DNA of 64,000 nucleotides from the IMG/VR virus record IMGVR_UViG_3300029288_007068; one strand, given 5' to 3'. Numbering within the stretch: position 1 is the first letter of the stretch; each line of letters starts with the position of its first letter. Of this stretch, positions 8,730 to 61,456 are shown piece by piece. The stretch is from a virus. Lineage: Duplodnaviria; Heunggongvirae; Uroviricota; Caudoviricetes. The position numbers and the translations under genes are program-made. A model generated the notes under the pieces. It was not told the origin of the DNA and made no database searches. It worked only from the letters and a program-made list of their open reading frames with translations.

Positions 8730-8791
8730 ATTTATTCCTCTTAATTTCCAAATATGTTGGTAATATATAAATTTTTAGATTGTCTTAATAG

Positions 8792-8923
8792 TTTAAAATT
8801 CTTCTGAATACATCTTTCTATACTTCTTATAGTGTTCTCGACAACAGAAGTTATGCTTTGTATGATAAACCGATTCCCGGCTTTTCTCAAATTTCTTTAG
8901 ACAATAATCACAATTGACTTTCA
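8792..8923 (-). CDS. Small zinc-finger protein (43 aa), absent from the ORF track
   Basis: Hand-translated: MKVNCDYCLKKFEKSRESVYHTKHNFCCREHYKKYRKMYSEEF. SD GGAGAAAA upstream. Confidence 0.3.
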
Positions 8924-9189
8924 TTTTTCTCCTTCTTCCTTTTACGCCACCGGGTAACTCTCTCAACATTTTTCTTTCTATTCATCTCATTGGCGCATTC
9001 TTCCGAACAATACCTTGTAACTTTTGTTCCATAATAATAGAAATCACAATCGGGATTAAGACACTTTTTGAGTTTTACCCTCTTCATCCTTCCTACTCGA
9101 TACTTTTTCTTTTTTATACACTCAGAACATTGCTTGTTATGACATGACTTCCCACAAGTCAAACATCTAATTACTTTTTTATACACCAC
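8908..9189 (-). CDS. Cys-rich basic zinc-ribbon protein
   Basis: CLTCGKSCHNKQCSECIKKKK and CLNPDCDF...CSEECANE motifs. Confidence 0.4.
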   Translation of the reverse strand: MVYKKVIRCLTCGKSCHNKQCSECIKKKKYRVGRMKRVKLKKCLNPDCDFYYYGTKVTRYCSEECANEMNRKKNVERVTRWRKRKKEKNESQL

Positions 9190-9841
9190 GTTTATTCCCC
9201 CACAATGTAATTTGCAGGCGCGGCGTTATTCTTCCATATCCAATTTCTTTAACCCACTCGACAATTTGAAGCATCTTAGAATTGATATCTTGTTCGTTTG
9301 TTCCTTCCGGCATAAAGTAGATGTTATCTTTGACATTTATGAGTGCACATATTCGTAGCACTTCATCGAAATCCTTCCGGTCACGAATGACGAATTTAAA
9401 TGCGTCAGCTTGCAGTGACCATTTACGAAGGACATCCAAATAGCGAGGATTGAGAAAGTCCGGTTTTGGGCTGACGATAAAGGTACAAAAGCCTATGATG
9501 AGAGGGCGGTAGATAGTACCGTTAGTTTCAATGTAAATGGTTTTACCGGTCTTGAAGAGTTCTTTAACAAGGTCTTCAATTTGAGGTTGAAGGAGAGGCT
9601 CACCACCGGTGATAACTATGTTCTGACATCTATCATCGATAAGGTCTATGATTTCACTTATCTGGAGGTCTTGTCCATCTTTCGCATATTTGCTGTCACA
9701 GAAATCACAAGTAAGGTTACAACCAGACAAACGAATGAACCAAGCTGGCATTCCTATTTGTGAACCTTCGCCCTGGATAGAATAAAAAGTTTCTGAAATT
9801 TTCATATCAACCCTTCCTATCTGGTGCCCAACCCTCAACAA
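9179..9841 (-). CDS. queE: 7-carboxy-7-deazaguanine synthase (radical SAM)
   Basis: Radical-SAM cluster motif in FIRLSGCNLTCDFCDSKY (CxxxCxxC in a QueE-like context). Length 220 aa. Confidence 0.7.
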   Translation of the reverse strand: MLRVGHQIGRVDMKISETFYSIQGEGSQIGMPAWFIRLSGCNLTCDFCDSKYAKDGQDLQISEIIDLIDDRCQNIVITGGEPLLQPQIEDLVKELFKTGKTIYIETNGTIYRPLIIGFCTFIVSPKPDFLNPRYLDVLRKWSLQADAFKFVIRDRKDFDEVLRICALINVKDNIYFMPEGTNEQDINSKMLQIVEWVKEIGYGRITPRLQITLWGNKRGV

Positions 9842-10400
9842 AAGATTTAATCTCTACCCTATCAGCTTCAGTAAATGGTATATTAAGGTAGTGTTGTAAA
9901 GATATAATTTGAGTGTGACCCTGAGACAAAGTTATCATAGCAATATACTCAGGATAGAAAAAGAGCAACCACGATTCCCATGTCTTCCTGGTAGTCTTTA
10001 CTGATAACCCCTCTGGAGATAGTCCAACCTTTTCTGCCCAAGATTTAAGATTCATCCCCCAACTTTGTGTTGTTGGGACGTGGGTATTGATATTTTGAAA
10101 AAACTGAACTATCATTTTCCCTTGGTTATTCAATCTCACCCAACGTTCTTGTTGTGTTCTTGCTTTTTTAAGACACGCCTCTTTTGGAAGATGAACGAAA
10201 TCCCCATCAAACCACTCTCTATGCACTTGAAATCGTTGCATCTCTACATATCTCATACCGGTGTAAAGCATGGTTTGTAAAATTATTTTATAGTCCATTT
10301 TTTGACAACCATTCAATAAAGCTCGAAACTCTTTTGGCCGTAAAATGCGGGTTCCATTCTTTATGATGGGTCTCCTAAACTCTTCTTCTGTTGGAAACAT
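9807..10400 (-). CDS. Small tyrosine recombinase / integrase (catalytic domain only)
   Basis: Box I-like LQTMLYTGMRYVEMQRF with a conserved Arg. C-terminal LSQGHTQIISLQHYLN fits the LGH-x-x-x-T-x-x-Y tyrosine-recombinase box II pattern. Confidence 0.45.
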   Translation of the reverse strand: MFPTEEEFRRPIIKNGTRILRPKEFRALLNGCQKMDYKIILQTMLYTGMRYVEMQRFQVHREWFDGDFVHLPKEACLKKARTQQERWVRLNNQGKMIVQFFQNINTHVPTTQSWGMNLKSWAEKVGLSPEGLSVKTTRKTWESWLLFFYPEYIAMITLSQGHTQIISLQHYLNIPFTEADRVEIKSFVEGWAPDRKG

Positions 10401-10531
10401 ACTACCTCCAAGAAACTATAAAAGTCAAAGGAATTTGACCATTTTATTTATAAACAACATATGCTAACCCAAAGGTAAAGAGGTTTTGATATCTTTATGA
10501 TTACTTATCTTTTAATTTACAACGACAACAT

Positions 10532-10738
10532 TTACCATTGTTTTTTCCTTCGTTTTACAAAGGAACGTGACTCTATGTAAATACCTGCTTTAGTATCTGC
10601 GTAAGAACCAGGGCTGAATCTTTTTAATTTCAATTCATAATCCATGTGTTCTGCTTGTTTTCTTGCTTTTGCATAGGTGTCGAAATATTTGTTATCGAAA
10701 TCACCTGTTGCGGATAATCTCCATTTTTTATTTTTCAT
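10532..10738 (-). CDS. Small basic hypothetical protein
   Basis: ORF preceded by the class-2 leader cassette. Confidence 0.35.
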   Translation of the reverse strand: MKNKKWRLSATGDFDNKYFDTYAKARKQAEHMDYELKLKRFSPGSYADTKAGIYIESRSFVKRRKKQW

Positions 10739-11169
10739 AGTTTTCCTCCTAATTATAATTGAAAGGCATCTTCAAGAAGTATCATCACTCCTGAATAAAG
10801 CATAGCAAGTGCAAATGCACCAATTCCGATAAAGACCCAATAGATTTTATCGACTGTTGATGATTTCATTTCTTCTCCTGAACTAATTCTTTATAACAAT
10901 CATCGCAAACAAAACAAGCATAATCACCAACAATCGAATGGATTATTACCTTGTTTGTTCTTTTTGCTCCCTGTTTCCAGCACTCATGACACTTCATTAG
11001 TCATCCTCCATAAGTAAAAAATTACCCTTTCCATATTTTTTCACCCCATTTTCATCAACCATAGTACCGCATAAGTTACAGTAATAAGCATGAAATTGGT
11101 CATTCCATCCTAGCACGTTATTGCATTTAGGACATACTTTCATGGTTTTGCTCCTAATTAAAAGTGTAA

Positions 11170-11361
11170 TTAATCTTCATTATACTCAACCCATCGGACA
11201 ACATCTATCCATAGTTTTCCACAAGTCGAACATTTCATTGGATGATAATAGATTGATTGCAAAAGCATACCATCGCATTTCTGGTCTGGGCAATGTATTA
11301 CTTCACTTTGATGCCAATCTGGTTGTATATCGTTTCCTTCATGGTCTTTAGAGAGTTTCAT
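11170..11361 (-). CDS. Small zinc-ribbon protein
   Basis: CPDQKCDG ... CSTCGK motif pairs. Confidence 0.4.
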   Translation of the reverse strand: MKLSKDHEGNDIQPDWHQSEVIHCPDQKCDGMLLQSIYYHPMKCSTCGKLWIDVVRWVEYNED

Positions 11362-16443: not shown

Positions 16444-16476
16444 ATTATATAAAGTTTGTTAAAGAGTTAATAGTAT
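16444..16476 (-). promoter_or_regulatory. Class-1 bipartite promoter motif (minus strand ACTATTAAC, 14 nt, TTATATAAT)
   Basis: Motif seen directly in the sequence, 20 nt upstream of the ATG at 16423. Confidence 0.5.
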
Positions 16477-16699: not shown

Positions 16700-17065
16700 T
16701 TACTTACACTCTCCACATAATCCATCTCTAAACAGAAACCCCCACTTGTTACACTTTTTACAATGCCCAGCAACCATAAAGGCGTCACCATAATCCGGGT
16801 GGTCTTTATCAAACTCCTTTTCCTCATGCTTCAATGGGATTTGTACGGGCGCCTTACTCATTGGAGTAAGATAATGCACATTATATCCCTTGCTGGTCAG
16901 CTCATCGTACAAGTCCGTCCTTTTGGCTTCCGGAAATACCCATGACTTATCTGCCCGAAAGAAATACCCTTTATGGGAACGCATTATATCCACAAGGTCT
17001 GTATTATACATAAAATGAAGTTTTATTTTATTTCCATCTTTCCTAAAATTAACGGTCTGTGTCAT
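16700..17065 (-). CDS. Zinc-ribbon protein
   Basis: C-terminal CKKCNKWGFLFRDGLCGEC. Confidence 0.4.
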   Translation of the reverse strand: MTQTVNFRKDGNKIKLHFMYNTDLVDIMRSHKGYFFRADKSWVFPEAKRTDLYDELTSKGYNVHYLTPMSKAPVQIPLKHEEKEFDKDHPDYGDAFMVAGHCKKCNKWGFLFRDGLCGECK

Positions 17066-17094: not shown

Positions 17095-17126
17095 ATATAT
17101 AAGGATTTTGGTTAGTTTAATAGTTA
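17095..17126 (-). promoter_or_regulatory. Class-1 bipartite promoter motif
   Basis: Minus strand AACTATTAA, 14 nt, CCTTATATA, upstream of 17065. Confidence 0.5.
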
Positions 17127-17543
17127 AGTCAAAACTCTTGGATTGACGCTTATTTTATCATAGCTCCATTCCGCTATAAAAGGTTTTAACAACTGCGGCT
17201 CTATATGAATGAGATGTCCAAAAAAGTATACTCCAACCCAGCTGTGATATCTGTTGGTCTTAATATCACGACCAACTACTTGATGGGATGCTATTCCCAA
17301 TTTATAAAAAACACTACCCATCTCAGCCGTGAAATCAACACAATTAAAGTCTTTGATGTCATACCTCAAGCCCTGACAAGACGCTAAATAAGTATGAATA
17401 ATTACCCATATCGCTATGATGTGTAATAACTTTATTACGCTTTGCTCTATTTTCTTTTTATGTTTTATTTTCCATAGCGAAAAACCGGATATGGTTTTTG
17501 GGGCAACTTCCATCTTTTCCATCTTGGCTTCCTTCCTTTCCAT
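17124..17543 (-). CDS. Transglutaminase-like cysteine peptidase domain protein with N-terminal hydrophobic segment (possible cell-wall-degrading lysis enzyme)
   Basis: FNCVDFTAEMGSVFYKLGIASHQV...YHSWVGVYF fits the transglutaminase-like core pattern (C-x-x-FA...LGI...H-x-W-x-x-V-Y). The true start is probably an internal Met, because the N-terminus overlaps the Hjc gene. Confidence 0.4.
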   Translation of the reverse strand: MERKEAKMEKMEVAPKTISGFSLWKIKHKKKIEQSVIKLLHIIAIWVIIHTYLASCQGLRYDIKDFNCVDFTAEMGSVFYKLGIASHQVVGRDIKTNRYHSWVGVYFFGHLIHIEPQLLKPFIAEWSYDKISVNPRVLT

Positions 17544-17782
17544 CTAACATAATAATAAACGTTAAATCCCTGTTGAGCGTATGCGTTCATTAAATCGTAT
17601 TGTTCTTTGTCAGATGAAGTATAGAACTTGTCGGCTTTCGTTGACTTAACTTCTATAATCTGGTGGTCATCCGGCTTAAGCGCAATTAAGTCGGCATTAT
17701 GACTTCCCGCGCTACGAAAGATAACCCAGCCACTACGTCGAAGGACGTCTCTTAATTCGCGTTCGTAATCTGCCCCAGCCAT
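17465..17782 (-). CDS. hjc: Hjc-type Holliday junction resolvase (PD-(D/E)xK)
   Basis: YERELRDVLRRSGWVIFRSAGSHNADLIALKPDDHQIIEVKSTKADKFY matches the Hjc catalytic motifs E ... RSAGS ... DLIA ... EVK. Confidence 0.55.
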   Translation of the reverse strand: MAGADYERELRDVLRRSGWVIFRSAGSHNADLIALKPDDHQIIEVKSTKADKFYTSSDKEQYDLMNAYAQQGFNVYYYVRWKGRKPRWKRWKLPQKPYPVFRYGK

Positions 17783-18465: not shown

Positions 18466-18514
18466 TTGCCTACCCCATATTCTATCTTATATATAAATAT
18501 TTATGTATTCCTCA

Positions 18515-18546
18515 TATATAAAGGTTTATGACGCCTTAATAGTTTC
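18515..18546 (-). promoter_or_regulatory. Class-1 bipartite promoter motif
   Basis: Minus strand AACTATTAAG, 14 nt, TTATATATG. A second TTTATATATAAG lies closer to the ATG at 18465. Confidence 0.5.
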
Positions 18547-18548: not shown

Positions 18549-19250
18549 TTATATACGTATACCCTTTATTAAGACATAACCACAGAAAGGCTTAAAAGTC
18601 TTATATTTTAATAAGACGTTATCCAATCTAACTATGAGTTTCAATACCTTCCTTACAATTGGTTTTATGGCGTTTGGAAGGCGGGATATTACATGAGGCA
18701 TCGAATAAGATATTAGCCAATAGTATTTAAGCTCTGTTATGGTAAAATATTCCTTTATTTTACCTTCAAGGACAGAGGGCTTAAACGGGCGTTCACTTTC
18801 CTCATGACTCATAGTCGGGAATGCCTTTCTTATTATGTAAGCGATGGGGTTTAGGCTCCCAGGTTCTTCTACTAATATTTGTCCACCAGGCTTTAAGATA
18901 CGATGTATCTCCTTTAACGCCAAATCCAAATTGTCAGGCACATGATGTAATATCGCCCTCGCCAAGACAACATCAAAGGTTTCATCTTTAAAAGGCATAT
19001 TGAGTATGTTGCCTTGTATTGGCGTTATTCCTGGTAAGTGCATCCCATCCGCTCCTACCATTATACTCCGGTCTATGTCGATTGATACAATTGTTGTGGT
19101 TTCGCTTTTTAATTGCTTAGCGAACTTTCCATTATTTCCTCCTAAATCAATTATATAACTTTTGGCTGGTAGTTGTAACTCTAATGGTTTAGTCCAAAGT
19201 TCATTTCCCAAAATCCGGACTGATTCTTTATCAACCTTATACTGTAACAT
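18549..19250 (-). CDS. Class I SAM-dependent methyltransferase
   Basis: Motif I IIDLGGNNGKF, VLARAILHHVPD, and post-I LKPGGQILVEE. Overlaps the OST gene end by 14 nt, so same operon. Confidence 0.55.
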   Translation of the reverse strand: MLQYKVDKESVRILGNELWTKPLELQLPAKSYIIDLGGNNGKFAKQLKSETTTIVSIDIDRSIMVGADGMHLPGITPIQGNILNMPFKDETFDVVLARAILHHVPDNLDLALKEIHRILKPGGQILVEEPGSLNPIAYIIRKAFPTMSHEESERPFKPSVLEGKIKEYFTITELKYYWLISYSMPHVISRLPNAIKPIVRKVLKLIVRLDNVLLKYKTFKPFCGYVLIKGIRI

Positions 19251-22200
19251 TGTGGGTATTCAACCCCGGCTTTGTAAAGATGGTTGTATCATATATTGAT
19301 GTTTCATTAACACCAAGTATTGATATCTTATAGTTTTGGGGTATCAGTTCAGTAAATTGGAAAGTATTGTTTCCCATAATCGGATATGTTTGTGATTGGT
19401 AATACTCTTTGCCCTCTATCATTAACGTTAATCCAGTTTGGTTTGTGTTAATGTTTACATCTAACGTCGACCAGTTAACGTCAAACGATACTGATTTATT
19501 ACAGGGAATATCTCTTCTTCCTTCTTCTTCTGTAACAATAATTGGTTGACTCATATCTAAAGTATTATCGGTAGTAAAGAGTCTTATCGTCAAGTTGCCA
19601 GCCGGCGCTATAAGACTAAACGTTCCATTTTCGTCAGTCATCCCATATCCATGTGGAATCCCAAAGTCATCAAAGACGTAAGCAAAGACGTATGGAAATG
19701 GTTGGTCACCAACTTTTACTGTTCCTGTGATTGTTGCGCCTTCATAGTATTTTGAGATAACAACAACCGGCGAATAGTATACTAATCTAAAATGTGTAAG
19801 CAGATACGTTGGCATCCTATTATCTGGGAACTCACCATAGCCCCAGTAAGTCTTATACCACAGAGTTTCGTAGAGAAGAGATTTAATTTTTACGTCTTGT
19901 TGCAAATCCATTTTATCTAACTCTTCTTGGGAAAGTTTTTGTAATTGTTGTAAAGTATAAAACTCATTCGTCTTGGCATCTCGCCACCACAAATAGTAAT
20001 AATCATCTTCTATGTAGTCCTGCGCAAAGCCCTGATATCCCCTGTCTGTAAGAAAAGTAAACACACCGAATATTTGAGTATCATATTGTTCTGTCCCATA
20101 ATAGCGGATAGAGTAACCGGTTGCATTTTGGATTGCCTTGTAAAACAACGTCATTTGTTCATCGGTCATATTTTGCATGAGTTTCCAAGAATCGTGATAC
20201 ATTGCGTTATCAGCCCGCTTTCTAAAGATAGTATTTCCATACTCCGGTGAATCCAGCGTATTGTAAGATGGACAGGTTGTCGGGTCTTCAATATACTGGA
20301 CTAAGATATCAGCGGATTGGATAGTTGACAAATTATAAAACGTAGCATTAGTTGGAAGATATGAACTTCGATAGATGGTTGGGTCTGATTGGTTAATTCT
20401 ATATTCATAGATTGGTGGTATATAAGTATTGAAAACTTCTTTTACTGTGTTTGAGAGTTTTCCGCCATTGTGGGATTTGGCGCCTTCACAACATCTAACT
20501 ATAAGAACTGACACTGCTTCTGTCTCAGTAGTAGAAAGTTTGAAGTTCCCTGATGCATACATTCCCACTTGATAGTTATCTGCCACGGTTGGATGCTTTC
20601 CCATAGCGGCTTCATAGAACCCGTAATCCCACCAGGATATAAATGCGGGTTTATCTTCATCTAAAGGTATTTCGGTATCTTGTAGTGATAACCAATAAAA
20701 AGCATCCGCCCAATAGATTTCTTTAGAAAGGGACGCACCGAAAGCGCCTTGCCATCCAGCACCAAAGTAATCTTCTTTCGACTCTGCTGGGATTGAAGCA
20801 TCTAACGCCAAAAGCGAGTTTGGTAAAATGAGTCCAACTATGATAAACAAAATCCCAAGAACTTGATATATCTTTATCGCCTTTCTCTTTCTCCAACCAC
20901 TCATTGACTTAAAGTTTTTAATTGTTTGTTTTAAGTTTAACTTATCAACTATAAGCATTATAAAGAAACCAGCTGCCACAGTAAACGCGGGAATGAGGTC
21001 ATTTAAGAATCGACCGGAAGTTGTTGTCAGGTAAAAAGTCAGGACAAATATATATAAGAAAAATATGCTCTCCGCTTTGAATTTCTCTTTATAAGACTTT
21101 ACAGCGTAAAGAACAAATCCACCAAGACCAATCCAATATAAAGCCGGACCGAAAGACATAATATTCTGACTCATTCCAAACGTATGCGCCTCTGCCACCG
21201 TCATTGATACTTTGCTCCCATAAATTCCTTCGCCAAACATCGTAATGGCAAGCTGAAGGAGAAACCCTTGTAACTTTATGATTCCTTGTGTGCCCAAGTA
21301 AAGGATTAACATCCCAACTGAACCTATTGATATCATAGATGGTATTGATATAATCCATGGAATATTTAGTTTGTTTATAACAAGGTATATTCCCAAGATG
21401 GCTATTGATATCAACATTGTTATAAAAGGCAAGTCAAATATTTGTCCTTGAATTAAAGCGTATGGGAAAGCAATTAAGTAAGCAACCAGGAAGAGCGCAA
21501 CAAAAGAATACATATTTTTGGTTGGAGTTTTCGACTTGAGAATATCAAAAATCATTATCACAAACATGGCAACCAAAGGCATCATAAAGGCAAGCTGGGA
21601 AGCCGCCCAAGTTAGATAAAGAGCACCAACGAATACGCCTGAAAGGGTGCCGTATAAAAGTGATGTAATCTGCTTCGGCTCTTTAAGCATTTTTATTATG
21701 AAGAAATAAAGACAGGCAAAGAGCAATAACACAAAGGAATCGTGGTCAAACAAGGCGAGGGAAGCGCCATGAGAACCTCCTATGTGTATGGGAATAAGGG
21801 CAACAAGGAAGGCAGCTATGAGACCAACCTTTCGGTTGAAAAGGTTTTTGGCTATTCCGTAAATTGGGAATATAAGTAGAGCCCCGTAGATGGCAGGAAG
21901 GAAAAGCATTGCCCATCCCATCGCATCTGTTGTAGTAGTGAAGGCACTAAGAGCTTGTGCAGTTGCAACTGCGACTAATGTAAACAGAGGCGGTCTGGAA
22001 CCTCTCTCACCTACGGGGTAGTTTAACAATGGGTCTGCGTCTCCGGAATGTGGTTGTGTAAAAGGATATGCTCCGGTTTGCATTGTAAGTTCAACTTGAC
22101 GCATATTCAGATATGGGTCGGGTCCTCCCAAGAAGAATCGTGTTCCCAGCGTCTCACCACTTGGATTAAAAGCGGCTCCCGACGTAAAGTTGAAGTAAGT

Positions 22201-22597: not shown

Positions 22598-22630
22598 TTA
22601 TATTAATAATTTTAGTTTGATTTAATAGTT
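22598..22630 (-). promoter_or_regulatory. Class-1 bipartite promoter motif driving the OST operon
   Basis: Minus strand AACTATTAAA, 14 nt, TTAATATAAG, about 33 nt before the ATG at 22564. Confidence 0.5.
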
Positions 22631-25096: not shown

Positions 25097-25128
25097 ATAT
25101 ATAAAGACTTTGTTTACTTTAATAGTAA
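25097..25128 (-). promoter_or_regulatory. Class-1 bipartite promoter motif
   Basis: Minus strand ACTATTAA, 14 nt, TTATATATG. Confidence 0.5.
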
Positions 25129-27564: not shown

Positions 27565-28317
27565 CTACTCCTCCTTCTGCAATGGTCTTGGCAAATGATA
27601 CTTGCTTAGGTAGATTTCGAGGTCATGCGCTTCTTTCTCCGATTCCATTCTAACCTTTTCCTGCGCATACTCAAGTTCCAACTTCTTGGGTTTGTTGGCG
27701 AAGTAACAATTCTTCATTGGAAAGACTTGCTTTGACAACGTGTGTATATTAGTCCCATGAAGCAACTCACATTGTTTGACTGGGTCGCCAATATAGGATT
27801 TCCGGACTGGACAATGGTAGCGGAAGAAACTAACAACCAACTTTCCTTTCTTACAGGCTTTGCACTTTCCGCCCAGTGATTCTTTGTTCTCCGTTTTCAC
27901 ATAAGTATAAGTATCACACTTTGGACAATGAACTTCATATTCGGACTCGAGTGCCTTACAAACCACAGGGTGATACTTCCCAGAGTTTTTATCTATTGTC
28001 CAATGACCGCGTTTCCGCTGGCGGATGAGACCTTTCTTTTTGAGCTGATACAGCGCTTGGTCGACCTTTCGAACTATTTGGGAATTCTTATCATTGGTAT
28101 GGTGTTTATCGACGAACGTAGTCAATGATGTTTTCTTGGCTTCTTCTACTATGCCAGTTTTGGTTATATATGGAAGCCGATTTTTGTGTGACGTCTTTAT
28201 AATATCCAATACTAATTTCTGAACGCCTTGCATTTTAATCCAGCCTCCCTGTTCTGACTTCTCTACAAACAGGACATAGTTCTTCTCCACTTCCGCCTTC
28301 ATCAATATATCGCCCAC
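27565..28317 (-). CDS. Cys-rich putative DNA-binding protein (winged-helix-like segment)
   Basis: LKKKGLIRQRKRGHWTIDK segment. Several CxxC pairs (CPKCDT, CKACKK, CPVRK). Confidence 0.35.
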   Translation of the reverse strand: MGDILMKAEVEKNYVLFVEKSEQGGWIKMQGVQKLVLDIIKTSHKNRLPYITKTGIVEEAKKTSLTTFVDKHHTNDKNSQIVRKVDQALYQLKKKGLIRQRKRGHWTIDKNSGKYHPVVCKALESEYEVHCPKCDTYTYVKTENKESLGGKCKACKKGKLVVSFFRYHCPVRKSYIGDPVKQCELLHGTNIHTLSKQVFPMKNCYFANKPKKLELEYAQEKVRMESEKEAHDLEIYLSKYHLPRPLQKEE

Positions 28318-29790: not shown

Positions 29791-29821
29791 TATATAAAGG
29801 TTTGGTTGAAGTTAATAGTTC
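29791..29821 (-). promoter_or_regulatory. Class-1 bipartite promoter motif
   Basis: Minus strand AACTATTAAC, 14 nt, TTTATATAC, upstream of a 58-aa ORF (about 29526..29688) that is absent from the track. Confidence 0.45.
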
Positions 29822-34727: not shown

Positions 34728-34759
34728 CTATATAAGGTTTTAGTATACTTTAATAGTTC
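34728..34759 (-). promoter_or_regulatory. Class-1 bipartite promoter motif
   Basis: Minus strand AACTATTAAA, 14 nt, CCTTATATAG, upstream of the collagen-like gene. Confidence 0.5.
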
Positions 34760-38547: not shown

Positions 38548-38616
38548 CAGAGTTCACCATAACATTTGCTTCTTCAAAATATGTAATATCACAATCTTTA
38601 AGGAATTGTTTTTTCT

Positions 38617-39393
38617 TCATAGTTCACCTGTCTTTGATATTCTTGTTTGTAATTTGCGTGTGACGTTATACCAGTCACGTGGTTGGGCAGTTGAAGGGAA
38701 GTGATAACATAAAGCATTTGTTAGAAGATGCCCTTTAAGGCGCGAATCTGTAAGCCAATATTCTAACATTATATCTTCACATGGCATGCCGTGGAGATGG
38801 CGCAGTTTGTATATAACCTTTGTAAACTTGTCGGGACTAATTCGATTCATAGCAATCATATAATGGAAGCCACCAGTGACACATTTGATTTCTTTATGCT
38901 TCTCCATATTATAGTAGTAGTGAGGGATGCCCCATTCAGACAACCCCGCGAAGGAGTTTTTTGTGTCGAGCGAATAATCGGAGTGAGCAAGAGCGTTATT
39001 GACATCAATGGCTACGCCGGCGACATAGATGACTTTAGAATGGGAACGAATGTGGTCGTAAAGAGTTTTGACGAATCCGGGCGTAAGCATTACGTCATCG
39101 TCTAACATAAGGAGATATCGGTAATGACGCTCACGGGCGTAGCGAAGGAGAAAGACGCGCGCGAGGGCAAGACTTCTATCTTTCATTGAGCGAATGTGTT
39201 TGACGTCGACGCCTTTGTGGAGTTGGAGCAAGTCTATCATTTGACGGACTATGTAGTTATCGGTGACTGGGGCGTCAGAGGAATCATATATAACTAAATC
39301 GAAGTGGATGGCTTGTTGCGACAAGGAGTAAAGAGGGAGAGGCAGAATATCGGAACGGTTTTTGGTGGGGATTGCTATAAGGATTTCATTCAT
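38617..39393 (-). CDS. Family-2 glycosyltransferase (GT-A fold)
   Basis: N-terminal IAIPTKNRSDIL and a DxD-containing LLMLDDDVMLTPGF motif. Confidence 0.55.
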   Translation of the reverse strand: MNEILIAIPTKNRSDILPLPLYSLSQQAIHFDLVIYDSSDAPVTDNYIVRQMIDLLQLHKGVDVKHIRSMKDRSLALARVFLLRYARERHYRYLLMLDDDVMLTPGFVKTLYDHIRSHSKVIYVAGVAIDVNNALAHSDYSLDTKNSFAGLSEWGIPHYYYNMEKHKEIKCVTGGFHYMIAMNRISPDKFTKVIYKLRHLHGMPCEDIMLEYWLTDSRLKGHLLTNALCYHFPSTAQPRDWYNVTRKLQTRISKTGEL

Positions 39394-39780: not shown

Positions 39781-39812
39781 CTTTATAAGGGTTTAGGAAG
39801 GGTTAATAGTTT
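39781..39812 (-). promoter_or_regulatory. Class-1 bipartite promoter motif (variant TTATAAAGG)
   Basis: Minus strand AACTATTAAC, 14 nt, CCTTATAAAGG. Confidence 0.4.
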
Positions 39813-41220: not shown

Positions 41221-41371
41221 ATATACCTATAAAGTCAACAATTTATATACCTTTTGGTTATGGGTCCTCAATCTACTTCCAACCTTCACCGAATACTTCA
41301 CAACCTCCGGTAGGTTGAAGAATGTGACATACAATCCAATCCAAAGGATGACGTCTAACATGTTTTCACTT

Positions 41372-42933: not shown

Positions 42934-42966
42934 TTATATAAATTTTATTGTTGTCTTAATAGTTGT
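42934..42966 (-). promoter_or_regulatory. Class-1 bipartite promoter motif
   Basis: Minus strand AACTATTAAG, 14 nt, TTATATAAT. Confidence 0.5.
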
Positions 42967-43703: not shown

Positions 43704-43738
43704 ATATTTAAATATTTTATGGTAAAGTTTAATAGTTT
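43704..43738 (-). promoter_or_regulatory. Class-1 bipartite promoter motif (variant ATTTAAATA)
   Basis: Minus strand AACTATTAAA, 14 nt, ATTTAAATATC. Confidence 0.4.
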
Positions 43739-46852: not shown

Positions 46853-46862
46853 ACTTCCCTCA

Positions 46863-46925: not shown

Positions 46926-46927
46926 CG

Positions 46928-48002: not shown

Positions 48003-48036
48003 TATATATAAAGTTTTTTAAGTTGTTAATAGATAT
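48003..48036 (-). promoter_or_regulatory. Class-1 bipartite promoter motif
   Basis: Minus strand ATCTATTAAC, 14 nt, TTATATATAG. Confidence 0.45.
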
Positions 48037-48184: not shown

Positions 48185-48217
48185 CTATATAAGGATTGTG
48201 TTCAATTTAATAGTTAC
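48185..48217 (-). promoter_or_regulatory. Class-1 bipartite promoter motif upstream of a 38-aa ORF (about 48041..48157)
   Basis: Minus strand AACTATTAAA, 14 nt, CCTTATATAG. Only 19 nt separate the motif from the ATG, with SD GGAG inside that gap. Confidence 0.45.
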
Positions 48218-52031: not shown

Positions 52032-52340
52032 TCATTTCAATCCATCCTTGAAGCAGTAGTTGAAGAGCCAATAGTGCCAATCATTTACTAAACTTGTTTC
52101 TCCTCTTTCGAATAATGATTGACTTTTTCTATATTTAAGAAATTTCTTCCAAACCTCATGATTAGTCTTTTTTAATTCCCAATGATTATCACAATAGATA
52201 TCATAGAACTCCATGACTTGCTGGAATTTGGAGTAATCAAGTTTCTTAATATCTTTCGGTCTTGTCTTATCTTGTGCTTGTAACTTAAATATTTCATATT
52301 CAGTTATCACATCATCTTTTGTGAGTTGCATTTTAATCAA
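52032..52340 (-). CDS. Small hypothetical protein
   Basis: ORF with promoter motif at 52368..52399. Confidence 0.35.
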   Translation of the reverse strand: MIKMQLTKDDVITEYEIFKLQAQDKTRPKDIKKLDYSKFQQVMEFYDIYCDNHWELKKTNHEVWKKFLKYRKSQSLFERGETSLVNDWHYWLFNYCFKDGLK

Positions 52341-52367: not shown

Positions 52368-52399
52368 CTATATAAGGGTTGTTAAGACTTTAATAGTTT
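52368..52399 (-). promoter_or_regulatory. Class-1 bipartite promoter motif
   Basis: Minus strand AACTATTAAA, 14 nt, CCTTATATAG. Confidence 0.5.
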
Positions 52400-55366: not shown

Positions 55367-55399
55367 GTATATAAGGTTTTTTATAACTTTAATAGTTTT
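55367..55399 (-). promoter_or_regulatory. Class-1 bipartite promoter motif
   Basis: Minus strand AACTATTAAA, 14 nt, CCTTATATAC. Confidence 0.5.
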
Positions 55400-55401: not shown

Positions 55402-55431
55402 TAAAAAATAAGAAGAGGTTTATGCCTCTTC
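55402..55431 (-). terminator. Rho-independent-type terminator (7-bp stem GAAGAGG / CCTCTTC, 6-nt loop, then UUAUUUUUU) overlapping the stop codon of 55420..55878
   Basis: Inverted repeat 55412..55418 and 55425..55431. The A-run 55403..55411 on the plus strand gives a U-run on the transcript. Confidence 0.5.
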
Positions 55432-55878
55432 CGTGGAGTTGCTTTTAACAAACTCTTGGACAAACGCGTAATGGGAGTCCTCGTCTTCTTGACTGGCTAC
55501 TCGGAATGCCTTTGCTTTATCTCCATCGGCACGCCATACTCCATACCAGCCTTTTCGGGGAAGCAACTTAATGACGTTTTTGTTTTTCAGTTTCAACTGA
55601 ACGCATCCATGACTATCAGTCTTTTCTACAAGACCAAAATCATTAGTGAGCTTTGTCTTAAAAGCGTCCAGATGCGCAGTATCGCGAATGGGGGCGTCTT
55701 TTTGTGGTTTCCCTTCTGGGACTGACTTATCTGCCTTAAAAGCCTTTACGGTTTCCTTTGCGGCTTCTTTTCTTTCTTGGAATTCTGCCATTTCTTCTAC
55801 CACCGATTTATTTGCTTCTTTAGCCATTTCGGCTTCACCTTCAACAATCTCCTCTTCTGTTTCTTCATGTCTTGACAT
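55420..55878 (-). CDS. Hypothetical protein with acidic N-terminus
   Basis: ORF with SD TTGGAGGA. Promoter variant at 55921..55950. Confidence 0.4.
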   Translation of the reverse strand: MSRHEETEEEIVEGEAEMAKEANKSVVEEMAEFQERKEAAKETVKAFKADKSVPEGKPQKDAPIRDTAHLDAFKTKLTNDFGLVEKTDSHGCVQLKLKNKNVIKLLPRKGWYGVWRADGDKAKAFRVASQEDEDSHYAFVQEFVKSNSTEEA

Positions 55879-55949
55879 ATTCTGTCCTCCAATTATCTTA
55901 ACTCAAAATTACTTTGGTCATTTATATAAGTTATGGTTGCTTTAATAGT

Positions 55950-56621
55950 TTACTCTGTCTTAAAGATTCCAAACTTCTTTTTAGGCGGTTGTGGAGTCGG
56001 ACGTGACTGGGGTATTGCCGCCATTCGTCTGATTTCTTCTGCTTCTGCTTTTGCCCGCGCTTCTTCCCGGAGTATCTCCTGTTCTTGTGACGTTGGTTGT
56101 CTCTTCTGAGGGAAGTTAGTTGGCTTTAGTGTTGGTGAGTGGATTGTTGGCTTTTGGACTACTGGTGGCGCGGGTTCTTCGACTGGCGCTGGTTCTGGTT
56201 GGCTCATCGTAACTTCTTCATTTGATTCTATCTCAGCGTATTCCGGGACTGAAAAGGGAATCATCTTAAAGGCGTTAAGTATGTTCATCATAGACTCAAG
56301 CATATCTTTACGATACGACCACTCTATATGATTTCTATAATATTCTTGAGTAATGCGCTGGGCGATTTCGTCTCCTTCAAGCATACCAACCTTTTGGGCG
56401 GCAAGCCGGAATGATTGTTCTGCTATCGATTGGTGATACTTCTTCCATTCAAGCAACTGAGCAAACATCTCGGGTTTGAGCTTGAAGAGCATTTCCAATT
56501 CATCTACTATCTCATCAAAGAAGTCTTGATTGGTATTGTCCATTGCCTCGAAGGCTTTGGCAATACGACCGATGAGTAGTTCTTCGTATGTTTTTGTTTT
56601 GATATCTTCCATTATTGGCAT
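55950..56621 (-). CDS. Hypothetical protein with Pro-rich C-terminal region
   Basis: ORF. PEPAPVEEPAPPVVQKPTIHSPTLKPT segment. Confidence 0.4.
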   Translation of the reverse strand: MPIMEDIKTKTYEELLIGRIAKAFEAMDNTNQDFFDEIVDELEMLFKLKPEMFAQLLEWKKYHQSIAEQSFRLAAQKVGMLEGDEIAQRITQEYYRNHIEWSYRKDMLESMMNILNAFKMIPFSVPEYAEIESNEEVTMSQPEPAPVEEPAPPVVQKPTIHSPTLKPTNFPQKRQPTSQEQEILREEARAKAEAEEIRRMAAIPQSRPTPQPPKKKFGIFKTE

Positions 56622-58344: not shown

Positions 58345-58794
58345 TTACATCTCCGGTTCTGTTACTGGCGCAGGTGCTTCTTGTTTTCCCCGTCCAAATA
58401 GGGCGCCACCTATTTTCGAACGTAATGAACCTTTGTTAGTCCGCGCAAGAATGCGTTGGACTTCTTCAGTGCGTTGAACTCCATGTTGACCATACAAAGT
58501 CCAAAATCCACCGACTGAACGTGTAAGCTGAAGCGTCATAAGAAACTCACCCATGAGCTCATGTGCATAATCATATATACCATTTTCAAGGAGAATGGCA
58601 ACCATCTTATATGTAACCTTAAATGCAAGGATGTCATCCCGGCGAATGTATCCAAGGGCAGATATCTTAGAGAACATAACGTAGAAGCGCATGAAGTATG
58701 CTTTCTCTTTAAGCGGGATATCTGGCTTCAGGACGAATTGAGCTACTGTAACTGAGACTTCTTTATCAATGTCGTCCTCATACGAACTTGGCAT
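58345..58794 (-). CDS. Hypothetical protein
   Basis: ORF. Confidence 0.35.
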   Translation of the reverse strand: MPSSYEDDIDKEVSVTVAQFVLKPDIPLKEKAYFMRFYVMFSKISALGYIRRDDILAFKVTYKMVAILLENGIYDYAHELMGEFLMTLQLTRSVGGFWTLYGQHGVQRTEEVQRILARTNKGSLRSKIGGALFGRGKQEAPAPVTEPEM

Positions 58795-59184: not shown

Positions 59185-59229
59185 TAGTTATAAAATACGG
59201 GTATCCCTTTATATACTTTTGTATAGTTT

Positions 59230-59927: not shown

Positions 59928-60123
59928 AATCTGGCTCTGGCATAATTGAATGATATATTTTAGTTCTCATTTTACACTTTTTGCAATAGTATTCAGTATA
60001 TGTTAATGCACTAATATCTTTACCATAGCGATGGATGAGATTCTCAGTTCCACATCGATTGTGAACTAAATGAGCTGTATAACATTTATATGGGTTCAGT
60101 TGGGAAAATGTTAGTTTTTTCAT
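59887..60123 (-). CDS. Small zinc-ribbon protein
   Basis: CYTAHLVHNRCG ... CKKCKMR motif pairs. Confidence 0.35.
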   Translation of the reverse strand: MKKLTFSQLNPYKCYTAHLVHNRCGTENLIHRYGKDISALTYTEYYCKKCKMRTKIYHSIMPEPDYVQPYVDIYYTED

Positions 60124-60549
60124 TTACTTTCCTTCCCTGAAAAACACATACCATACATCTATATTCTTTCTTGGGTCTCTCCATTTAGAAACTGAGAAGC
60201 CTGATTGTTTCATTTCTTCCTTCTTTTCTCTCCACTCTCGCCAGAAGTCTTGAGAGGCAATTCCCATAAAAAAGGCTTTTCCTCCTTTCCTCTTCTCAGT
60301 GAAGTGCATTCCATACATATCAAATGAAGTTGAGCGCTTAAAGCGTGGTGCTTGGTCTATTCCTTCAAATGTTCCTCCATGTTCACGTGTGTATTCTTGG
60401 GCGGCTTTAACGGCTTTAGCTTCAGTCATCGCCAAAATCTTTACGAAACTGTAGTGTGAGATTCCCATAAAACCAGCAAAGGTCTCTCGCCACAATGTAT
60501 ACATGACTTGCTTTTTACCGGTTGAGAGGTAATATCTCACATCTGACAT
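60124..60549 (-). CDS. Hypothetical protein
   Basis: ORF. Confidence 0.35.
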   Translation of the reverse strand: MSDVRYYLSTGKKQVMYTLWRETFAGFMGISHYSFVKILAMTEAKAVKAAQEYTREHGGTFEGIDQAPRFKRSTSFDMYGMHFTEKRKGGKAFFMGIASQDFWREWREKKEEMKQSGFSVSKWRDPRKNIDVWYVFFREGK

Positions 60550-60646
60550 TCTTTACCATCCATGACCATTTTCTACCTTCCGTGACGAGCCATCTATTTG
60601 AGCATATATTTTTGTATTAAGACTGCGGGTTAACTTTTGTAGTTGG

Positions 60647-60898
60647 TTACAATCTAAATGTCACCCACCAATGTGGTGACTGCTTTACACTTGCTCCACC
60701 ACGAAATGGTTTTGCGTAATTCTTAACTCCAGAATCTATAATCTGAGCATTAGGATAAAGACTTTTCACTTTGTTCTCAAGGTCAACTTCTGACTGACCA
60801 AAAGTATAAAAGAAAGCTCTTCGCACAGTAACGGTGTTTCCCTTTATTGATACATCGTCAAAATTATCTTTTAACTCTTGAATTATTTCCTTTTTCAT
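60647..60898 (-). CDS. Small hypothetical protein
   Basis: ORF with SD AGGTGAAGTAA. Confidence 0.3.
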   Translation of the reverse strand: MKKEIIQELKDNFDDVSIKGNTVTVRRAFFYTFGQSEVDLENKVKSLYPNAQIIDSGVKNYAKPFRGGASVKQSPHWWVTFRL

Positions 60899-61110
60899 TT
60901 ACTTCACCTACTTATAGGAATACATACTTGTCTTCGGACTTGATATCTTTCTGAACTCAACCCAAATGTAGCGGGATTTTGGATAAGTTCTCATAAGGTT
61001 GGCAACCAGCTTTTTATTGAGCATGTTGACAATTCCAACATACATGGCTTGCTTCCCATCGCTCTTTCTTATGATTTTGTATCCGAGTAGTTCTAAGCCC
61101 ATTTTCTCAC

Positions 61111-61392
61111 CTACAACTTATTCATAGTTCTTAAATCTACGTTCTGACTAAATATAATGTCACCAGGTGATGTTTCGTCGTGTCTTCGCATAAAGTCCAA
61201 AGCATGTGCCATAGCTTTGGCTCTACTATCAAAGTAAGTTGCATTTATGTAATATAGAGGATGATTACTATCTACTACCCAAACTTTTTCTCCTCTCGTG
61301 TTTGTAGTAGATGATACATACACAAATCTGCCTGAGTCGTTTTCCCATTGTGAAAGACCGCGTCTGGTTTTCTTTTTCTTCCATATATTCAT
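61111..61392 (-). CDS. Small hypothetical protein
   Basis: ORF. Promoter variant at 61423..61456. Confidence 0.35.
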   Translation of the reverse strand: MNIWKKKKTRRGLSQWENDSGRFVYVSSTTNTRGEKVWVVDSNHPLYYINATYFDSRAKAMAHALDFMRRHDETSPGDIIFSQNVDLRTMNKL

Positions 61393-61422
61393 TTTCTCAC
61401 CATGATATCATATATTAATCCT

Positions 61423-61456
61423 AATATTTAAGGTTTTAGTTAACGTTAATAGTTTA
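61423..61456 (-). promoter_or_regulatory. Class-1 bipartite promoter motif (variant TTAAATATT)
   Basis: Minus strand AACTATTAAC, 14 nt, CTTAAATATT. Confidence 0.4.

What the first reader, a model, noticed from the sequence alone, without database searches (positions are those of the whole stretch)
8762..61456. Rigidly conserved bipartite promoter-like motif repeated at least 17 times (AACTATTAA, 14 nt, TTATATA)
Upstream of many genes and operons the minus strand reads AACTATTAA(A/C/G), then a 14-nt spacer ending in A-rich AAAAYY, then TTATATA(G/T/A), typically 19-35 nt before the start codon. Copies lie at 8762, 16444, 17095, 18515, 22598, 25097, 29791, 34728, 39781, 42934, 43704, 48003, 48185, 52368, 55367, 55921 and 61423. 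The invariance of both boxes and of the spacing indicates a single dedicated transcription specificity. The geometry is compatible with a sigma-70-like -35/-10 pair (CTATTA, 17 nt, TATATA). It is equally compatible with an archaeal BRE/TATA (AACT + ATTAAA) followed by a conserved initiator region. Deciding between these would reveal the host domain and whether the virus uses its own initiation factor.
Basis: seen in the sequence. Interest (0 to 1): 0.6.

Follow-up and report, generated by a model that had tools for sequence, protein, structure and literature searches.

The report
Archaeal virus promoter with upstream box
The repeated motif is real and is best read as the standard promoter of a large, uncultivated archaeal virus: an ordinary archaeal TATA box and factor-B site, preceded by an invariant virus-specific 9-base box that probably binds a dedicated regulator.

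Summary
AACTATTAA-N14-TTATATA occurs 9 times exactly (0 expected). All 17 listed copies exist within 0-3 nt of the stated coordinates. All lie on the gene strand, in the about 10% of DNA that is non-coding.

The interpretation needs correcting. The host is archaeal, not bacterial. The window encodes an AglB whose 80 nearest cellular homologues are all archaeal, nearly all labelled Thermoplasmatota, and it encodes an Hjc resolvase. Sigma-70 promoters and intrinsic terminators are not enriched.

The second box, not the first, is the TATA box. It reads TTTA(T/A)ATA and is preceded by an unselected, invariant AA at the BRE position. An A/T-only patch follows 12-14 nt downstream. Start codons verified by orthology sit as close as 23-28 nt after it with no Shine-Dalgarno sequence.

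AACTATTAA is therefore an extra upstream element at about -52 to -44, two helical turns from the TATA centre. It is conserved at syntenic promoters in eight or more related metagenomic contigs (AglB identity 43-69%, GC 30-39%). It is absent from 642 kb of Thermoplasmatota DNA.

The most likely role is a binding site for a dedicated, probably virus-encoded, factor acting on TFB/TBP. A clade-restricted winged-helix/zinc-ribbon protein (27565-28317) is a speculative candidate. The closest known analogues are the halovirus HF2 intergenic promoter repeats. It is a new member of a known kind.

The parts
61425..61454 (-). Promoter copy: AACTATTAA-N14-TTAAATA. Start codon 61392, 32 nt after the TATA box, with GGTGA starting 23 nt after it.
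55921..55950 (-). Promoter copy: AACTATTAA, with the TATA variant TATATAAA in the same register. Upstream of gene 55420-55878.
55368..55397 (-). Promoter copy, exact. A T6 run lies 11 nt upstream. A short ORF starts about 41 nt after the TATA box.
52369..52398 (-). Promoter copy, exact. Upstream of gene 52032-52340.
48186..48215 (-). Promoter copy, exact. It overlaps the stop codon of the helicase gene. A short ORF starts 19-26 nt after the TATA box.
48005..48034 (-). Promoter copy: ATCTATTAA variant. Upstream of gene 47199-47975.
43705..43737 (-). Promoter copy with a 17-nt spacer: AACTATTAA...AAAATATTTAAATA. Upstream of gene 43412-43666.
42935..42964 (-). Promoter copy, exact. It has a long 119-nt leader before gene 42564-42815.
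39782..39811 (-). Promoter copy: TATA variant TTATAAA. Upstream of gene 39386-39745.
34729..34758 (-). Promoter copy, exact. Upstream of the collagen-like gene 34121-34696.
29791..29820 (-). Promoter copy, exact. It heads the operon that contains the winged-helix/zinc-ribbon gene 27565-28317.
25098..25127 (-). Promoter copy: TACTATTAA variant. GGTGAT starts 21 nt after the TATA box.
22601..22630 (-). Promoter copy: TATA variant TATTAATA in register. Upstream of the small gene 22316-22564 and AglB. The same promoter is present at the orthologous place in 8 related contigs.
18515..18544 (-). Promoter copy, exact. A second BRE/TATA-like site lies 25 nt downstream at 18490-18504. The same promoter is present after the methyltransferase gene in relatives.
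17096..17125 (-). Promoter copy, exact. Upstream of gene 16700-17065. In four relatives the orthologous start codon (MVQTVKIR...) lies 26-28 nt after the TATA box with no SD.
16446..16475 (-). Promoter copy: TACTATTAA variant. An ATG lies 22 nt after the TATA box, and GGTGA starts at 25.
8764..8793 (-). Promoter copy, exact. Start codon 8729, 34 nt after the TATA box.
38595..38624 (-). It is intergenic, upstream of gene 38311-38547.
8560..8575 (-). BRE/TATA-like promoter (CCAAAAATTTTATAAA) without an intact upstream box. It heads the FolE/DpdA/replication operon, which runs to about 255.
41242..41257 (-). BRE/TATA-like promoter (CCAAAAGGTATATAAA) without the upstream box. GGTGAT starts 24 nt after it, the same geometry as the motif-bearing promoters.
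59206..59221 (-). BRE/TATA-like promoter (CAAAAGTATATAAAGG) without the upstream box at the canonical distance. It is preceded by a T7 run.
27565..28317 (-). Speculative candidate for the factor that binds AACTATTAA. It is a protein with an N-terminal winged helix and a zinc ribbon. It is restricted to the motif-bearing clade.

Best explanation
The window is part of a large (about 141 kb) virus-like element of an archaeon, most likely a member of the Thermoplasmatota. It is transcribed by the host RNA polymerase. Each motif copy is a complete archaeal promoter.

In motif coordinates the parts are:
- Positions 16-22 (c-A-A-A-A-c-c) are the TFB recognition element (BRE).
- Positions 23-30, (T)TTA(T/A)ATA, are the TATA box bound by TBP.
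- Positions 42-44 (A/T only) are the promoter-proximal element in the region that melts.
- Transcription starts about 22-24 nt after the TATA box. This gives leaderless mRNAs, or mRNAs whose Shine-Dalgarno sequence (GGTGA) lies at the very 5' end.

The invariant, non-palindromic (A/T)ACTATTAA (positions 1-9, about -52 to -44) is not part of the basal promoter. It lies one short gap upstream of the BRE. Its centre is 21.5 bp, two helical turns, from the centre of the TATA box, so it is on the same face of the DNA.

I infer that it is the binding site of one sequence-specific protein. That protein binds in a fixed orientation and touches TFB/TBP, or the polymerase. It thereby marks nearly all strong promoters of this genome region as one class, most likely by activation or preferential recruitment.

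Shown: the motif, its placement, its conservation across relatives, the archaeal gene content and the BRE/TATA/PPE signature.

Inferred: the transcription start site, protein binding at the upstream box, the sign of regulation, and a viral origin of the factor.
For: Motif statistics and strand. All copies lie in the about 10% non-coding DNA.

Archaeal host:
- The window's AglB has the A. fulgidus AglB as its best solved-structure match.
- All 80 best cellular homologues are archaeal MAGs, nearly all labelled Thermoplasmatota, Thermoplasmata or Thermoplasmatales.
- Hjc lies at 17465-17782 with E=8e-14.
- Relatives encode Hjc, ERCC4 and CDC48_N.
- There is no excess of sigma-70 promoters or intrinsic terminators.

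TATA/BRE/PPE, from a logo of 45 sites from the window and 8 related contigs. Positions not used for selection are conserved:
- A19 in 44/45 and A20 in 43/45.
- C22 in 30/45, T23 in 29/45 and C16 in 22/45.
- A/T only at position 42 (45/45) and position 43 (44/45).
- T52 followed by purines.
- BRE positions -3 and -6 are the known specificity determinants (PMC5512572).

Start-site geometry:
- Start codons have a sharp lower bound 22-24 nt after the TATA box.
- Orthology-verified starts at 23 nt (L121 9585, L129 966) and at 26-28 nt (L121 14918, L123 9793, L129 5996, L132 5516) have no SD.
- SD starts cluster at 21-24 nt.
- Promoters without the upstream box keep the same geometry.

The upstream box is a separate, selected element:
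- It is invariant at 8 positions.
- It is conserved at syntenic promoters in contigs whose AglB is only 43-69% identical and whose GC is 30-39%, while the flanks are unalignable.
- It never occurs as AACTATTAA without a TATA box, and never on the other strand, in the window.
- It is present at the exact offset in 14 of 19 strong BRE/TATA matches on the gene strand.
- It is absent from 642 kb of Thermoplasmatota DNA.

Precedent: archaeal activators bind just upstream of the BRE and recruit TBP or TFB (PMC5512572, PMC5569661).
Against: - There are no transcript 5' ends, so the start site is inferred.
- Known archaeal activators (TFB-RF1, EarA, the ara-box factor, Ptr2) typically help weak BRE or TATA elements. 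Here BRE and TATA are near consensus, so a recruitment aid is not obviously needed. In halovirus HF2 the conserved block upstream of the BRE was dispensable for basal promoter activity.
- No binding protein is identified. The box is asymmetric, whereas most prokaryotic regulators bind palindromes as dimers.
- If the factor is viral and nearly all promoters need it, the first round of expression is unexplained.
- One copy has a 17-nt spacer, which breaks the strict helical phasing.
- No virion gene was recognised in the window, so 'virus' is itself an inference.
Confidence: 0.62

Rival explanations
1. The upstream box binds a repressor or a host factor rather than a viral activator. One example would be a genome-wide silencer that keeps the element quiet in a carrier or lysogenic state. 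Another would be a conserved host regulator that the element exploits.
For: - BRE and TATA are already near consensus, so activation is not obviously required.
- Most characterised archaeal-virus regulators are repressors (PMC5569661).
- In SIRV2 a conserved early-promoter block is thought to be bound by the repressor Aca8 (PMC11065993).
- In HF2 the alpha block is dispensable for basal activity.
Against: - Archaeal repressors normally overlap the BRE/TATA or the start site. A site at -52 to -44 with fixed phasing is the activator position.
- For a host factor, no copy of the full motif was found in 642 kb of Thermoplasmatota DNA. Those loci are only AglB neighbourhoods, however.
Confidence: 0.17
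2. One reading: AACTATTAA contains the real TATA box (CTATTAAA). TTATATA is then the melted region and initiator, so transcription starts about 3 nt after TTATATA and leaders are 20-45 nt long.
For: - The first box is A/T-rich.
- Leaders of 20-45 nt would contain the Shine-Dalgarno sequences comfortably.
Against: - CTATTAAA is a poor match to TTTAWATA, and its invariant C is not what TBP reads.
- No BRE-like conservation lies upstream of it: positions -7 to -1 have an information content of 0.19 bits or less.
- The second box is a perfect TTTAWATA with AA at the BRE position.
- Three promoters lacking the first box keep the second-box-to-start geometry.
- Orthology-verified start codons 23-28 nt after the second box carry no SD. 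That suits leaderless mRNAs better than 20-nt leaders without an SD.
Confidence: 0.07
3. It is a bacteriophage promoter. TATATA is a sigma-70-type -10 element. AACTATTAA at -32 is read by a phage sigma factor, or by a MotA/AsiA-like sigma-appropriation system as at phage T4 middle promoters.
For: - The spacing of the two boxes is sigma-70-like (16-17 nt).
- Leaders of 25-35 nt with an SD would be typical of bacteria.
- Some genes are of types common in phages: Pol I-type 5'-3' exonuclease, YopX and T4 endonuclease V.
Against: - AglB is 35-40% identical to archaeal proteins only, nearly all from Thermoplasmatota MAGs, among 80 cellular hits.
- Hjc is present in the window, and ERCC4 and CDC48_N in relatives.
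- There are no GenBank phage relatives.
- The -10 register has an invariant A at -7, and relatives use TAAATA.
- The conserved AA in the spacer has no bacterial role.
- Sigma-70 promoters and intrinsic terminators are at chance level.
- No sigma factor was found.
Confidence: 0.03
4. The conserved 30-bp cassette is maintained mainly as a recombination or module-shuffling repeat, or as an RNA-level signal at the 3' end of the upstream transcript. Promoter activity resides in the TATA part only.
For: - The box often overlaps the upstream stop codon.
- Gene content between cassettes differs among relatives.
Against: - The spacer is not conserved, so the identical stretches are only 9 and 7 nt long. 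That is too short for homologous recombination.
- The box keeps a fixed distance to the TATA box, not to the upstream stop codon.
- Archaeal termination uses oligo-T, which is present upstream of only some copies.
Confidence: 0.05

Closest known systems
Class I intergenic repeats of halovirus HF2 and other Haloferacalesvirus (Russ, Pfeiffer and Dyall-Smith 2021, PMC8707807)
   Same: Both are repeats in the intergenic DNA of a large archaeal virus that carry the promoters. Both have a conserved block upstream of the BRE (alpha), a block with the TATA box (beta) and a block at the start site (gamma). The sequence and the genomic position are conserved among related viruses. In HF2 the TATA box begins at -26 from the mapped start site.
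   Different: - There is no sequence similarity: HF2 alpha is CTAAAGACTTAGAA and beta contains TCTTTAAGTC.
- HF2 has 7 class I and 2 class II copies, against at least 17 in 53 kb here.
- The spacer here is free to vary.
- The hosts differ (haloarchaea against probable Thermoplasmatota).
- HF2 promoter activity and start sites were measured. Here nothing was measured.
Consensus regulatory sequence of early genes of Sulfolobus rudivirus SIRV2 and other crenarchaeal viruses (Bhoobalan-Chitty et al. 2024, PMC11065993)
   Same: It is a shared promoter cassette with a strong BRE and a TTTAWATA TATA box in front of many small viral genes whose coding sequences are unrelated. It is thought to be bound by a viral winged-helix protein, Aca8.
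   Different: The conserved extra sequence there is associated with repression after the early phase and marks anti-defence genes at the genome ends. Here the extra box is upstream at a fixed distance. It precedes replication, DNA-modification and glycosylation operons as well as small ORFs.
Archaeal activator sites upstream of the BRE: TFB-RF1 (P. furiosus), EarA (Methanococcus), the ara-box factor (Sulfolobus), Ptr2 (M. jannaschii)
   Same: The position is immediately upstream of BRE/TATA. The known mechanism is recruitment of TFB or TBP.
   Different: Those sites serve single operons or small regulons with weak BRE or TATA elements. They are often repeated or palindromic. Here a single asymmetric 9-mer accompanies near-consensus BRE/TATA at nearly every promoter of a mobile element.
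Phage T4 middle promoters (MotA box at -30 plus a sigma-70 -10 element)
   Same: This is a functional analogy only. A virus-specific upstream box at fixed distance from an otherwise host-type core element defines a viral promoter class (own knowledge).
   Different: T4 uses bacterial machinery. The defining features were tested here and not met.

Membership tests
Archaeal BRE/TATA core promoter | TATA box close to TTTAWATA | tested here: met
   Positions 23-30 read (T/C)TTA(T/A)ATA in 45/45 pooled sites. Positions 24-30 were part of the search pattern, but the T/A alternation and T23 were not.
Archaeal BRE/TATA core promoter | Purine/A-rich BRE directly upstream of the TATA box, with determinants at -3 and -6 | tested here: met
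   A20 (-3) in 43/45, A19 in 44/45, purine at position 17 (-6) in 32/45, C16 in 22/45. None of these was used for selection. The rule is taken from PMC5512572.
Archaeal BRE/TATA core promoter | A/T-rich promoter-proximal element around -10 | tested here: met
   Only A or T at position 42 (45/45) and position 43 (44/45), and no C at position 44. These lie 12-14 nt after the TATA box.
Archaeal BRE/TATA core promoter | Transcription start about 22-27 nt downstream of the TATA box | not testable with these tools
   No RNA data are available. Indirect support: start codons have a lower bound of 22-24 nt, several lack an SD, and SD starts cluster at 21-24 nt.
Archaeal BRE/TATA core promoter | The host is an archaeon | tested here: met
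   The nearest cellular AglB homologues are all archaeal, nearly all labelled Thermoplasmatota. Hjc is in the window. ERCC4 and CDC48_N are in relatives. This rests on gene content, with no CRISPR or provirus link.
Bacterial sigma-70 promoter | -35 element resembling TTGACA | tested here: not met
   ACTATT or CTATTA at the -35 position is invariant and unlike TTGACA.
Bacterial sigma-70 promoter | -10 element TATAAT with A at -11 and T at -7 | tested here: not met
   The best register is TATATA or TAAATA, with an invariant A at -7. A generic sigma-70 scan is not enriched: 79 against 69.8±8.7, and 73 against 63.7±7.0.
Archaeal activator site (TFB-RF1 / EarA / ara-box / Ptr2 type) | Site located just upstream of the BRE | tested here: met
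   The box occupies positions 1-9 and the BRE begins at position 16. The spacing is fixed in 44 of 45 sites to within ±1 nt.
Archaeal activator site (TFB-RF1 / EarA / ara-box / Ptr2 type) | Bound by a sequence-specific protein that recruits TFB or TBP | not testable with these tools
   There is only a speculative candidate, the winged-helix/zinc-ribbon protein at 27565-28317.
Archaeal activator site (TFB-RF1 / EarA / ara-box / Ptr2 type) | Accompanies a weak BRE or TATA box | tested here: not met
   BRE and TATA are near consensus at nearly all copies.
Virus intergenic promoter repeats (HF2 class I type) | Conserved blocks upstream of the BRE, at the TATA box and near the start site, repeated in intergenic DNA and conserved in position among related viruses | tested here: met
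   The block near the start site is weaker here: T52/R53 and GGTGA.
Virus intergenic promoter repeats (HF2 class I type) | Sequence homology to the HF2 repeats | tested here: not met
   The HF2 motifs quoted in PMC8707807 share nothing with AACTATTAA-N14-TTATATA beyond A/T richness.
Phage T4 middle promoter (MotA/AsiA) | MotA box (a/t)(a/t)TGCTT(t/c)A at -30 plus a sigma-70 -10 element, in a bacterial host | tested here: not met
   There is no such box, no valid -10 element, and the gene content is archaeal. The MotA consensus is from own knowledge.

The most novel reading that the evidence does not exclude
The upstream box is read by a virus-encoded promoter-specificity factor, possibly the clade-restricted winged-helix/zinc-ribbon protein at 27565-28317. 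This factor would redirect the host TBP/TFB/RNA polymerase to nearly all viral promoters. It would be the functional equivalent in archaea of a phage sigma factor or of T4 MotA. No such genome-wide viral promoter-class factor has been characterised for an archaeal virus.
Probability: 0.3. Interest if true: 0.65.

Novelty: new member of a known kind. Interest (0 to 1): 0.45.

Why it matters
The motif settles the host domain of an otherwise unplaceable 64-kb stretch of ORFans. The element uses archaeal BRE/TATA promoters and belongs to a large, apparently undescribed group of AglB-encoding virus-like elements of sediment Thermoplasmatota.

The motif is also a practical tool. The 30-nt signature delimits transcription units. 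It corrects start codons, showing leaderless genes and genes with a 5'-terminal SD. It can recruit further members of the clade from metagenomes.

If the upstream box is read by a viral factor, this would be a clean, computationally well-defined system for studying how an archaeal virus marks its own promoters. That area has very few characterised cases.

Tried and rejected
- Megablast of 20 kb, and tblastn of 1,935 aa of replication proteins, against GenBank phages found nothing useful. There were no hits, or only 5 weak hits to a GyrA-C-like domain.
- IMG/VR searches with two single proteins found nothing.
Loci L001-L120 are therefore junk.
- Look-ups of the window's own contig failed three times, so the flanks beyond the window could not be read.
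- No tRNA or Rfam family was found.
- A search for alternative upstream boxes in motif-less AglB elements by k-mer counting gave only codon-driven k-mers.
- The test of TATA-to-ATG distances in Thermoplasmatota MAG loci had too few cases to be informative: 12 of 46 at 18-27 nt.
- The PHROGs scan added no transcription factor.
- The Fis-type HTH hit in 34758-35954 belongs to an SbcD/Mre11-like exonuclease. It was not pursued as a regulator.
- The fold search for the winged-helix candidate gave only generic winged-helix matches with E>0.1. These include protein-binding winged helices (MCM, Rpa2, cullin), so it does not establish DNA binding and shows no TFE-like relationship.

Full report
**Observation**

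The pattern AACTATTAA-N14-TTATATA occurs 9 times exactly, always on the minus strand, against 0.00 expected from 100 dinucleotide-preserving shuffles. AACTATTAA alone occurs 14 times, all on the minus strand, against 1.48 expected. With up to 3 mismatches there are 17 minus-strand and 3 plus-strand matches, against 2.74 expected in total.

Two copies (55921-55950 and 22601-22630) keep the register with the variants TATATAAA and TATTAATA. One copy (43705-43737) has a 17-nt spacer. A possible eighteenth, degenerate copy lies at 38595-38624.

Nearly all ORFs are on the minus strand. With a lenient ORF set about 90% of the window is coding. Even so, every copy lies in a gap or overlaps only the stop codon of the upstream gene.

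**What kind of genome this is**

Pfam and PHROGs annotation of all minus-strand ORFs finds the following:
- A full-length STT3/AglB oligosaccharyltransferase (19237-22353).
- An archaeal Holliday-junction resolvase Hjc (17465-17782, E=8e-14).
- A 7-deazaguanine DNA-modification set (FolE, QueD, QueE, QueC, a DpdA-like TGT).
- A primase-polymerase, a helicase, a 5'-3' exonuclease, a T4 endonuclease V-like glycosylase and YopX.
- Glycosyl- and methyltransferases.
- Very many small proteins with CxxC pairs.

No sigma factor, TFB, TBP or RNA polymerase subunit was seen. There is no tRNA or Rfam family, and there are no relatives among GenBank phages.

The AglB resembles the Archaeoglobus AglB among solved structures. 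In a scan of one genome per prokaryotic species, all 80 best matches (34-40% identity, full length) are archaeal MAGs, nearly all labelled Thermoplasmatota, Thermoplasmata or Thermoplasmatales. Generic sigma-70-type promoters (79 against 69.8±8.7; 73 against 63.7±7.0) and intrinsic terminators (8 against 11.6; 14 against 13.1) are at chance level.

The element is therefore archaeal. It is called a virus here because of its gene repertoire, but no capsid, portal or terminase gene was recognised in the 64 kb.

**Relatives**

AglB homologues at 43-69% identity lie on metagenomic contigs with the same local gene order: exonuclease, small gene, AglB, methyltransferase, Hjc, QueE, FolE, DpdA. Eight such contigs carry (A/T)ACTATTAA-N14-TT(T)A(T/A)ATA repeatedly. 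They include L121 from a 127-kb contig, L123, L124, L128, L129, L132, L142 and L160, with GC of 30-39%. The copies are only on the gene strand, in intergenic gaps, and at the same places relative to orthologous genes.

An alignment of the orthologous promoter upstream of the small gene before AglB was made from nine genomes. The only invariant columns before the coding sequence are ACTATTA, the AA pair and T..ATA. Everything else has diverged.

More distant AglB-encoding elements, on contigs of 85-232 kb, lack the motif in the loci available. So do 642 kb of Thermoplasmatota MAG DNA, which hold 0 copies. The virus-like loci hold 21 pattern matches in 1.06 Mb, a few of which are chance hits inside coding DNA.

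**Which box is which**

A logo was built from 45 non-redundant sites. It shows conservation at positions that were not used to find the sites:
- C16 (22/45), A17 and A18 (28/45 each), A19 (44/45) and A20 (43/45).
- C22 (30/45) and T23 (29/45).
- A/T only at position 42 (45/45) and position 43 (44/45), and no C at position 44.
- T52 followed by purines.
- C-depletion as far as the start codon.

With the 8-mer TATA box at positions 23-30, A20 is BRE position -3 and position 17 is -6. These are the two positions known to determine TFB binding (PMC5512572). The A/T patch lies where the promoter-proximal element would be if transcription starts about 23 nt after the TATA box.

Start codons support this. 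Their distance from the end of the TATA box has a sharp lower bound at 22-24 nt.
- The gene before AglB (N-terminus M-R/K-L-I-T-x-L-K in all genomes) starts 23 nt after the box in L121 and L129, with no Shine-Dalgarno sequence. In the others it starts 30-37 nt after the box, with one.
- The gene after Hjc (MVQTVKIR...) starts 26-28 nt after the box in four relatives, with no Shine-Dalgarno sequence.

Where a Shine-Dalgarno sequence exists, it begins 21-24 nt after the box, often as (T)ATGGTGA. This is the pattern of archaeal leaderless mRNAs and mRNAs with very short leaders.

Three further intergenic promoters in the window have AAAA-NN-TATATAAA or TTTATAAA without the upstream box. They lie at 8560-8575, 41242-41257 and 59206-59221, and they keep the same distance to GGTGAT or the start codon.

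The first box has no BRE-like conservation upstream of it. It also contains an invariant C, which TBP would not select. I conclude that TT(T)A(T/A)ATA is the TATA box and that AACTATTAA is an additional element at about -52 to -44.

**How it most likely works**

The box is asymmetric and invariant over eight bases. It is separated from the BRE by a short variable gap, and its centre is 21.5 bp from the centre of the TATA box. In the window it accompanies 14 of the 19 strongest BRE/TATA matches on the gene strand at the exact offset. As the full 9-mer AACTATTAA it never occurs alone or on the other strand.

This is the position where archaeal activators bind to recruit TFB or TBP. The most economical reading is a single sequence-specific protein, bound in one orientation on the same face as TBP/TFB, which defines a promoter class for this element.

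Three points weigh against a simple recruitment model:
- BRE and TATA are already near consensus, whereas known activators compensate for weak elements.
- In halovirus HF2 the analogous alpha block was dispensable for basal activity.
- One copy has a spacer 3 nt longer.

A repressor or a host factor therefore remains a serious rival.

**Candidate factor (speculative)**

All window proteins were compared by tblastn with 86 related loci. The 250-aa protein at 27565-28317 has homologues in all four motif-bearing loci that reach far enough upstream (L121, L123, L128, L142; 42-65% identity). It has none in the 76 motif-less loci.

Other evidence on this protein:
- In 5.8 billion proteins it has only 10 homologous clusters. 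One is 100% identical and lies on a 141,209-bp contig.
- It has sub-threshold winged-helix hits (Mrr_N, DUF6293_C, DpnI_C) and zinc-ribbon hits.
- Its most conserved N-terminal stretch is the third helix and the wing: DQAL.QLKKKG...GHW.
- An AlphaFold model (pLDDT 75.5) shows an N-terminal winged helix followed by a beta-rich zinc domain.
- Foldseek returns only generic winged-helix matches with E>0.1, some DNA-binding and some not.

Any clade-specific ORF would show the same co-occurrence, so this is a lead and not a finding.

**Comparison with what is known**

- The closest described case is the class I intergenic repeat of halovirus HF2. It has a conserved alpha block upstream of the BRE, a beta block with the TATA box and a gamma block at the start site. 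It is repeated in intergenic DNA and conserved in position among related viruses, and its promoter activity has been measured (PMC8707807).
- The SIRV2 early-gene consensus is a second case (PMC11065993).
- The element here shares the architecture but not the sequence. It has more copies and lies in a different, uncultivated host lineage.
- A full-text search for AACTATTAA found no relevant paper.

**Verdict**

The promoter interpretation is right. The sigma-70 reading is rejected. In the archaeal reading the boxes must be swapped. This is a new member of a known kind, conserved promoter cassettes of archaeal viruses. Interest is moderate (0.45). It would be higher if the upstream box proves to be read by a virus-encoded specificity factor (probability about 0.3).

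Noticed in passing
window 19237-22353 (-); loci L121-L206: The element encodes a full-length AglB/STT3 oligosaccharyltransferase with the WWDYG motif. More than 400 metagenomic stretches encode relatives. Many are on 60-232 kb contigs that share the FolE/DpdA/replication genes. This looks like a large, apparently undescribed group of AglB-encoding virus-like elements of sediment Thermoplasmatota.
   Followed up: partly
window 6367-8495, 9179-9841, 33129-34133, 43729-44094 (-): A complete-looking gene set for 7-deazaguanine DNA modification is present: FolE, a DpdA-like TGT, a QueE-like radical SAM enzyme, QueC fused to a HAD phosphatase, and QueD. The same set occurs in the relatives.
   Followed up: no
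window promoters, 21-24 nt after each TATA box (for example 61396-61402, 25070-25077, 29763-29768): Many promoters have (T)ATGGTGA or GGTGAT exactly where transcription should start. The Shine-Dalgarno sequence would then lie at the extreme 5' end of the mRNA. Orthologous genes in relatives are leaderless instead.
   Followed up: partly
window 46853-46927 (-): This intergenic stretch contains GGTTCAAATCC, which resembles a tRNA T-arm. ARAGORN and Rfam find no tRNA there. It could be a tRNA fragment or an attachment-site remnant.
   Followed up: partly
window 34121-34696 (-): This gene encodes a collagen-like G-X-Y repeat protein. It is the only source of the 'tail fibre' hits in PHROGs. No capsid, portal or terminase gene was recognised anywhere in the 64 kb.
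   Followed up: no
whole window, gene strand: Runs of five or more T are rare on the gene strand (78) compared with runs of five or more A (258). This may reflect avoidance of oligo-T terminators of the archaeal polymerase, or simply purine-rich coding.
   Followed up: no
motif positions 1-30 at all copies: The promoter DNA has almost no G on the sense strand. The upstream box contains a single invariant C:G pair. Interplay with the deazaguanine modification of G is conceivable and was not tested.
   Followed up: no
L125 (contig k141_2424930, 232,221 bp, range 212110-232221): A distant AglB-encoding relative lies at the end of a 232-kb contig. It also encodes ThyX, CDC48_N, ERCC4 and sugar-nucleotide enzymes. 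It is either a very large archaeal virus-like element or one integrated in, or assembled with, host DNA.
   Followed up: no
window 58345-58794 (-): This protein has an N-terminal ribbon-helix-helix-like sequence (VSVSVPAEMKVWLDNHPKVNRSKLFQDAVNSL) followed by predicted membrane helices. It lies downstream of one of the promoters that lack the upstream box, and L142 encodes a protein 69% identical to it. Pfam has no hit.
   Followed up: partly
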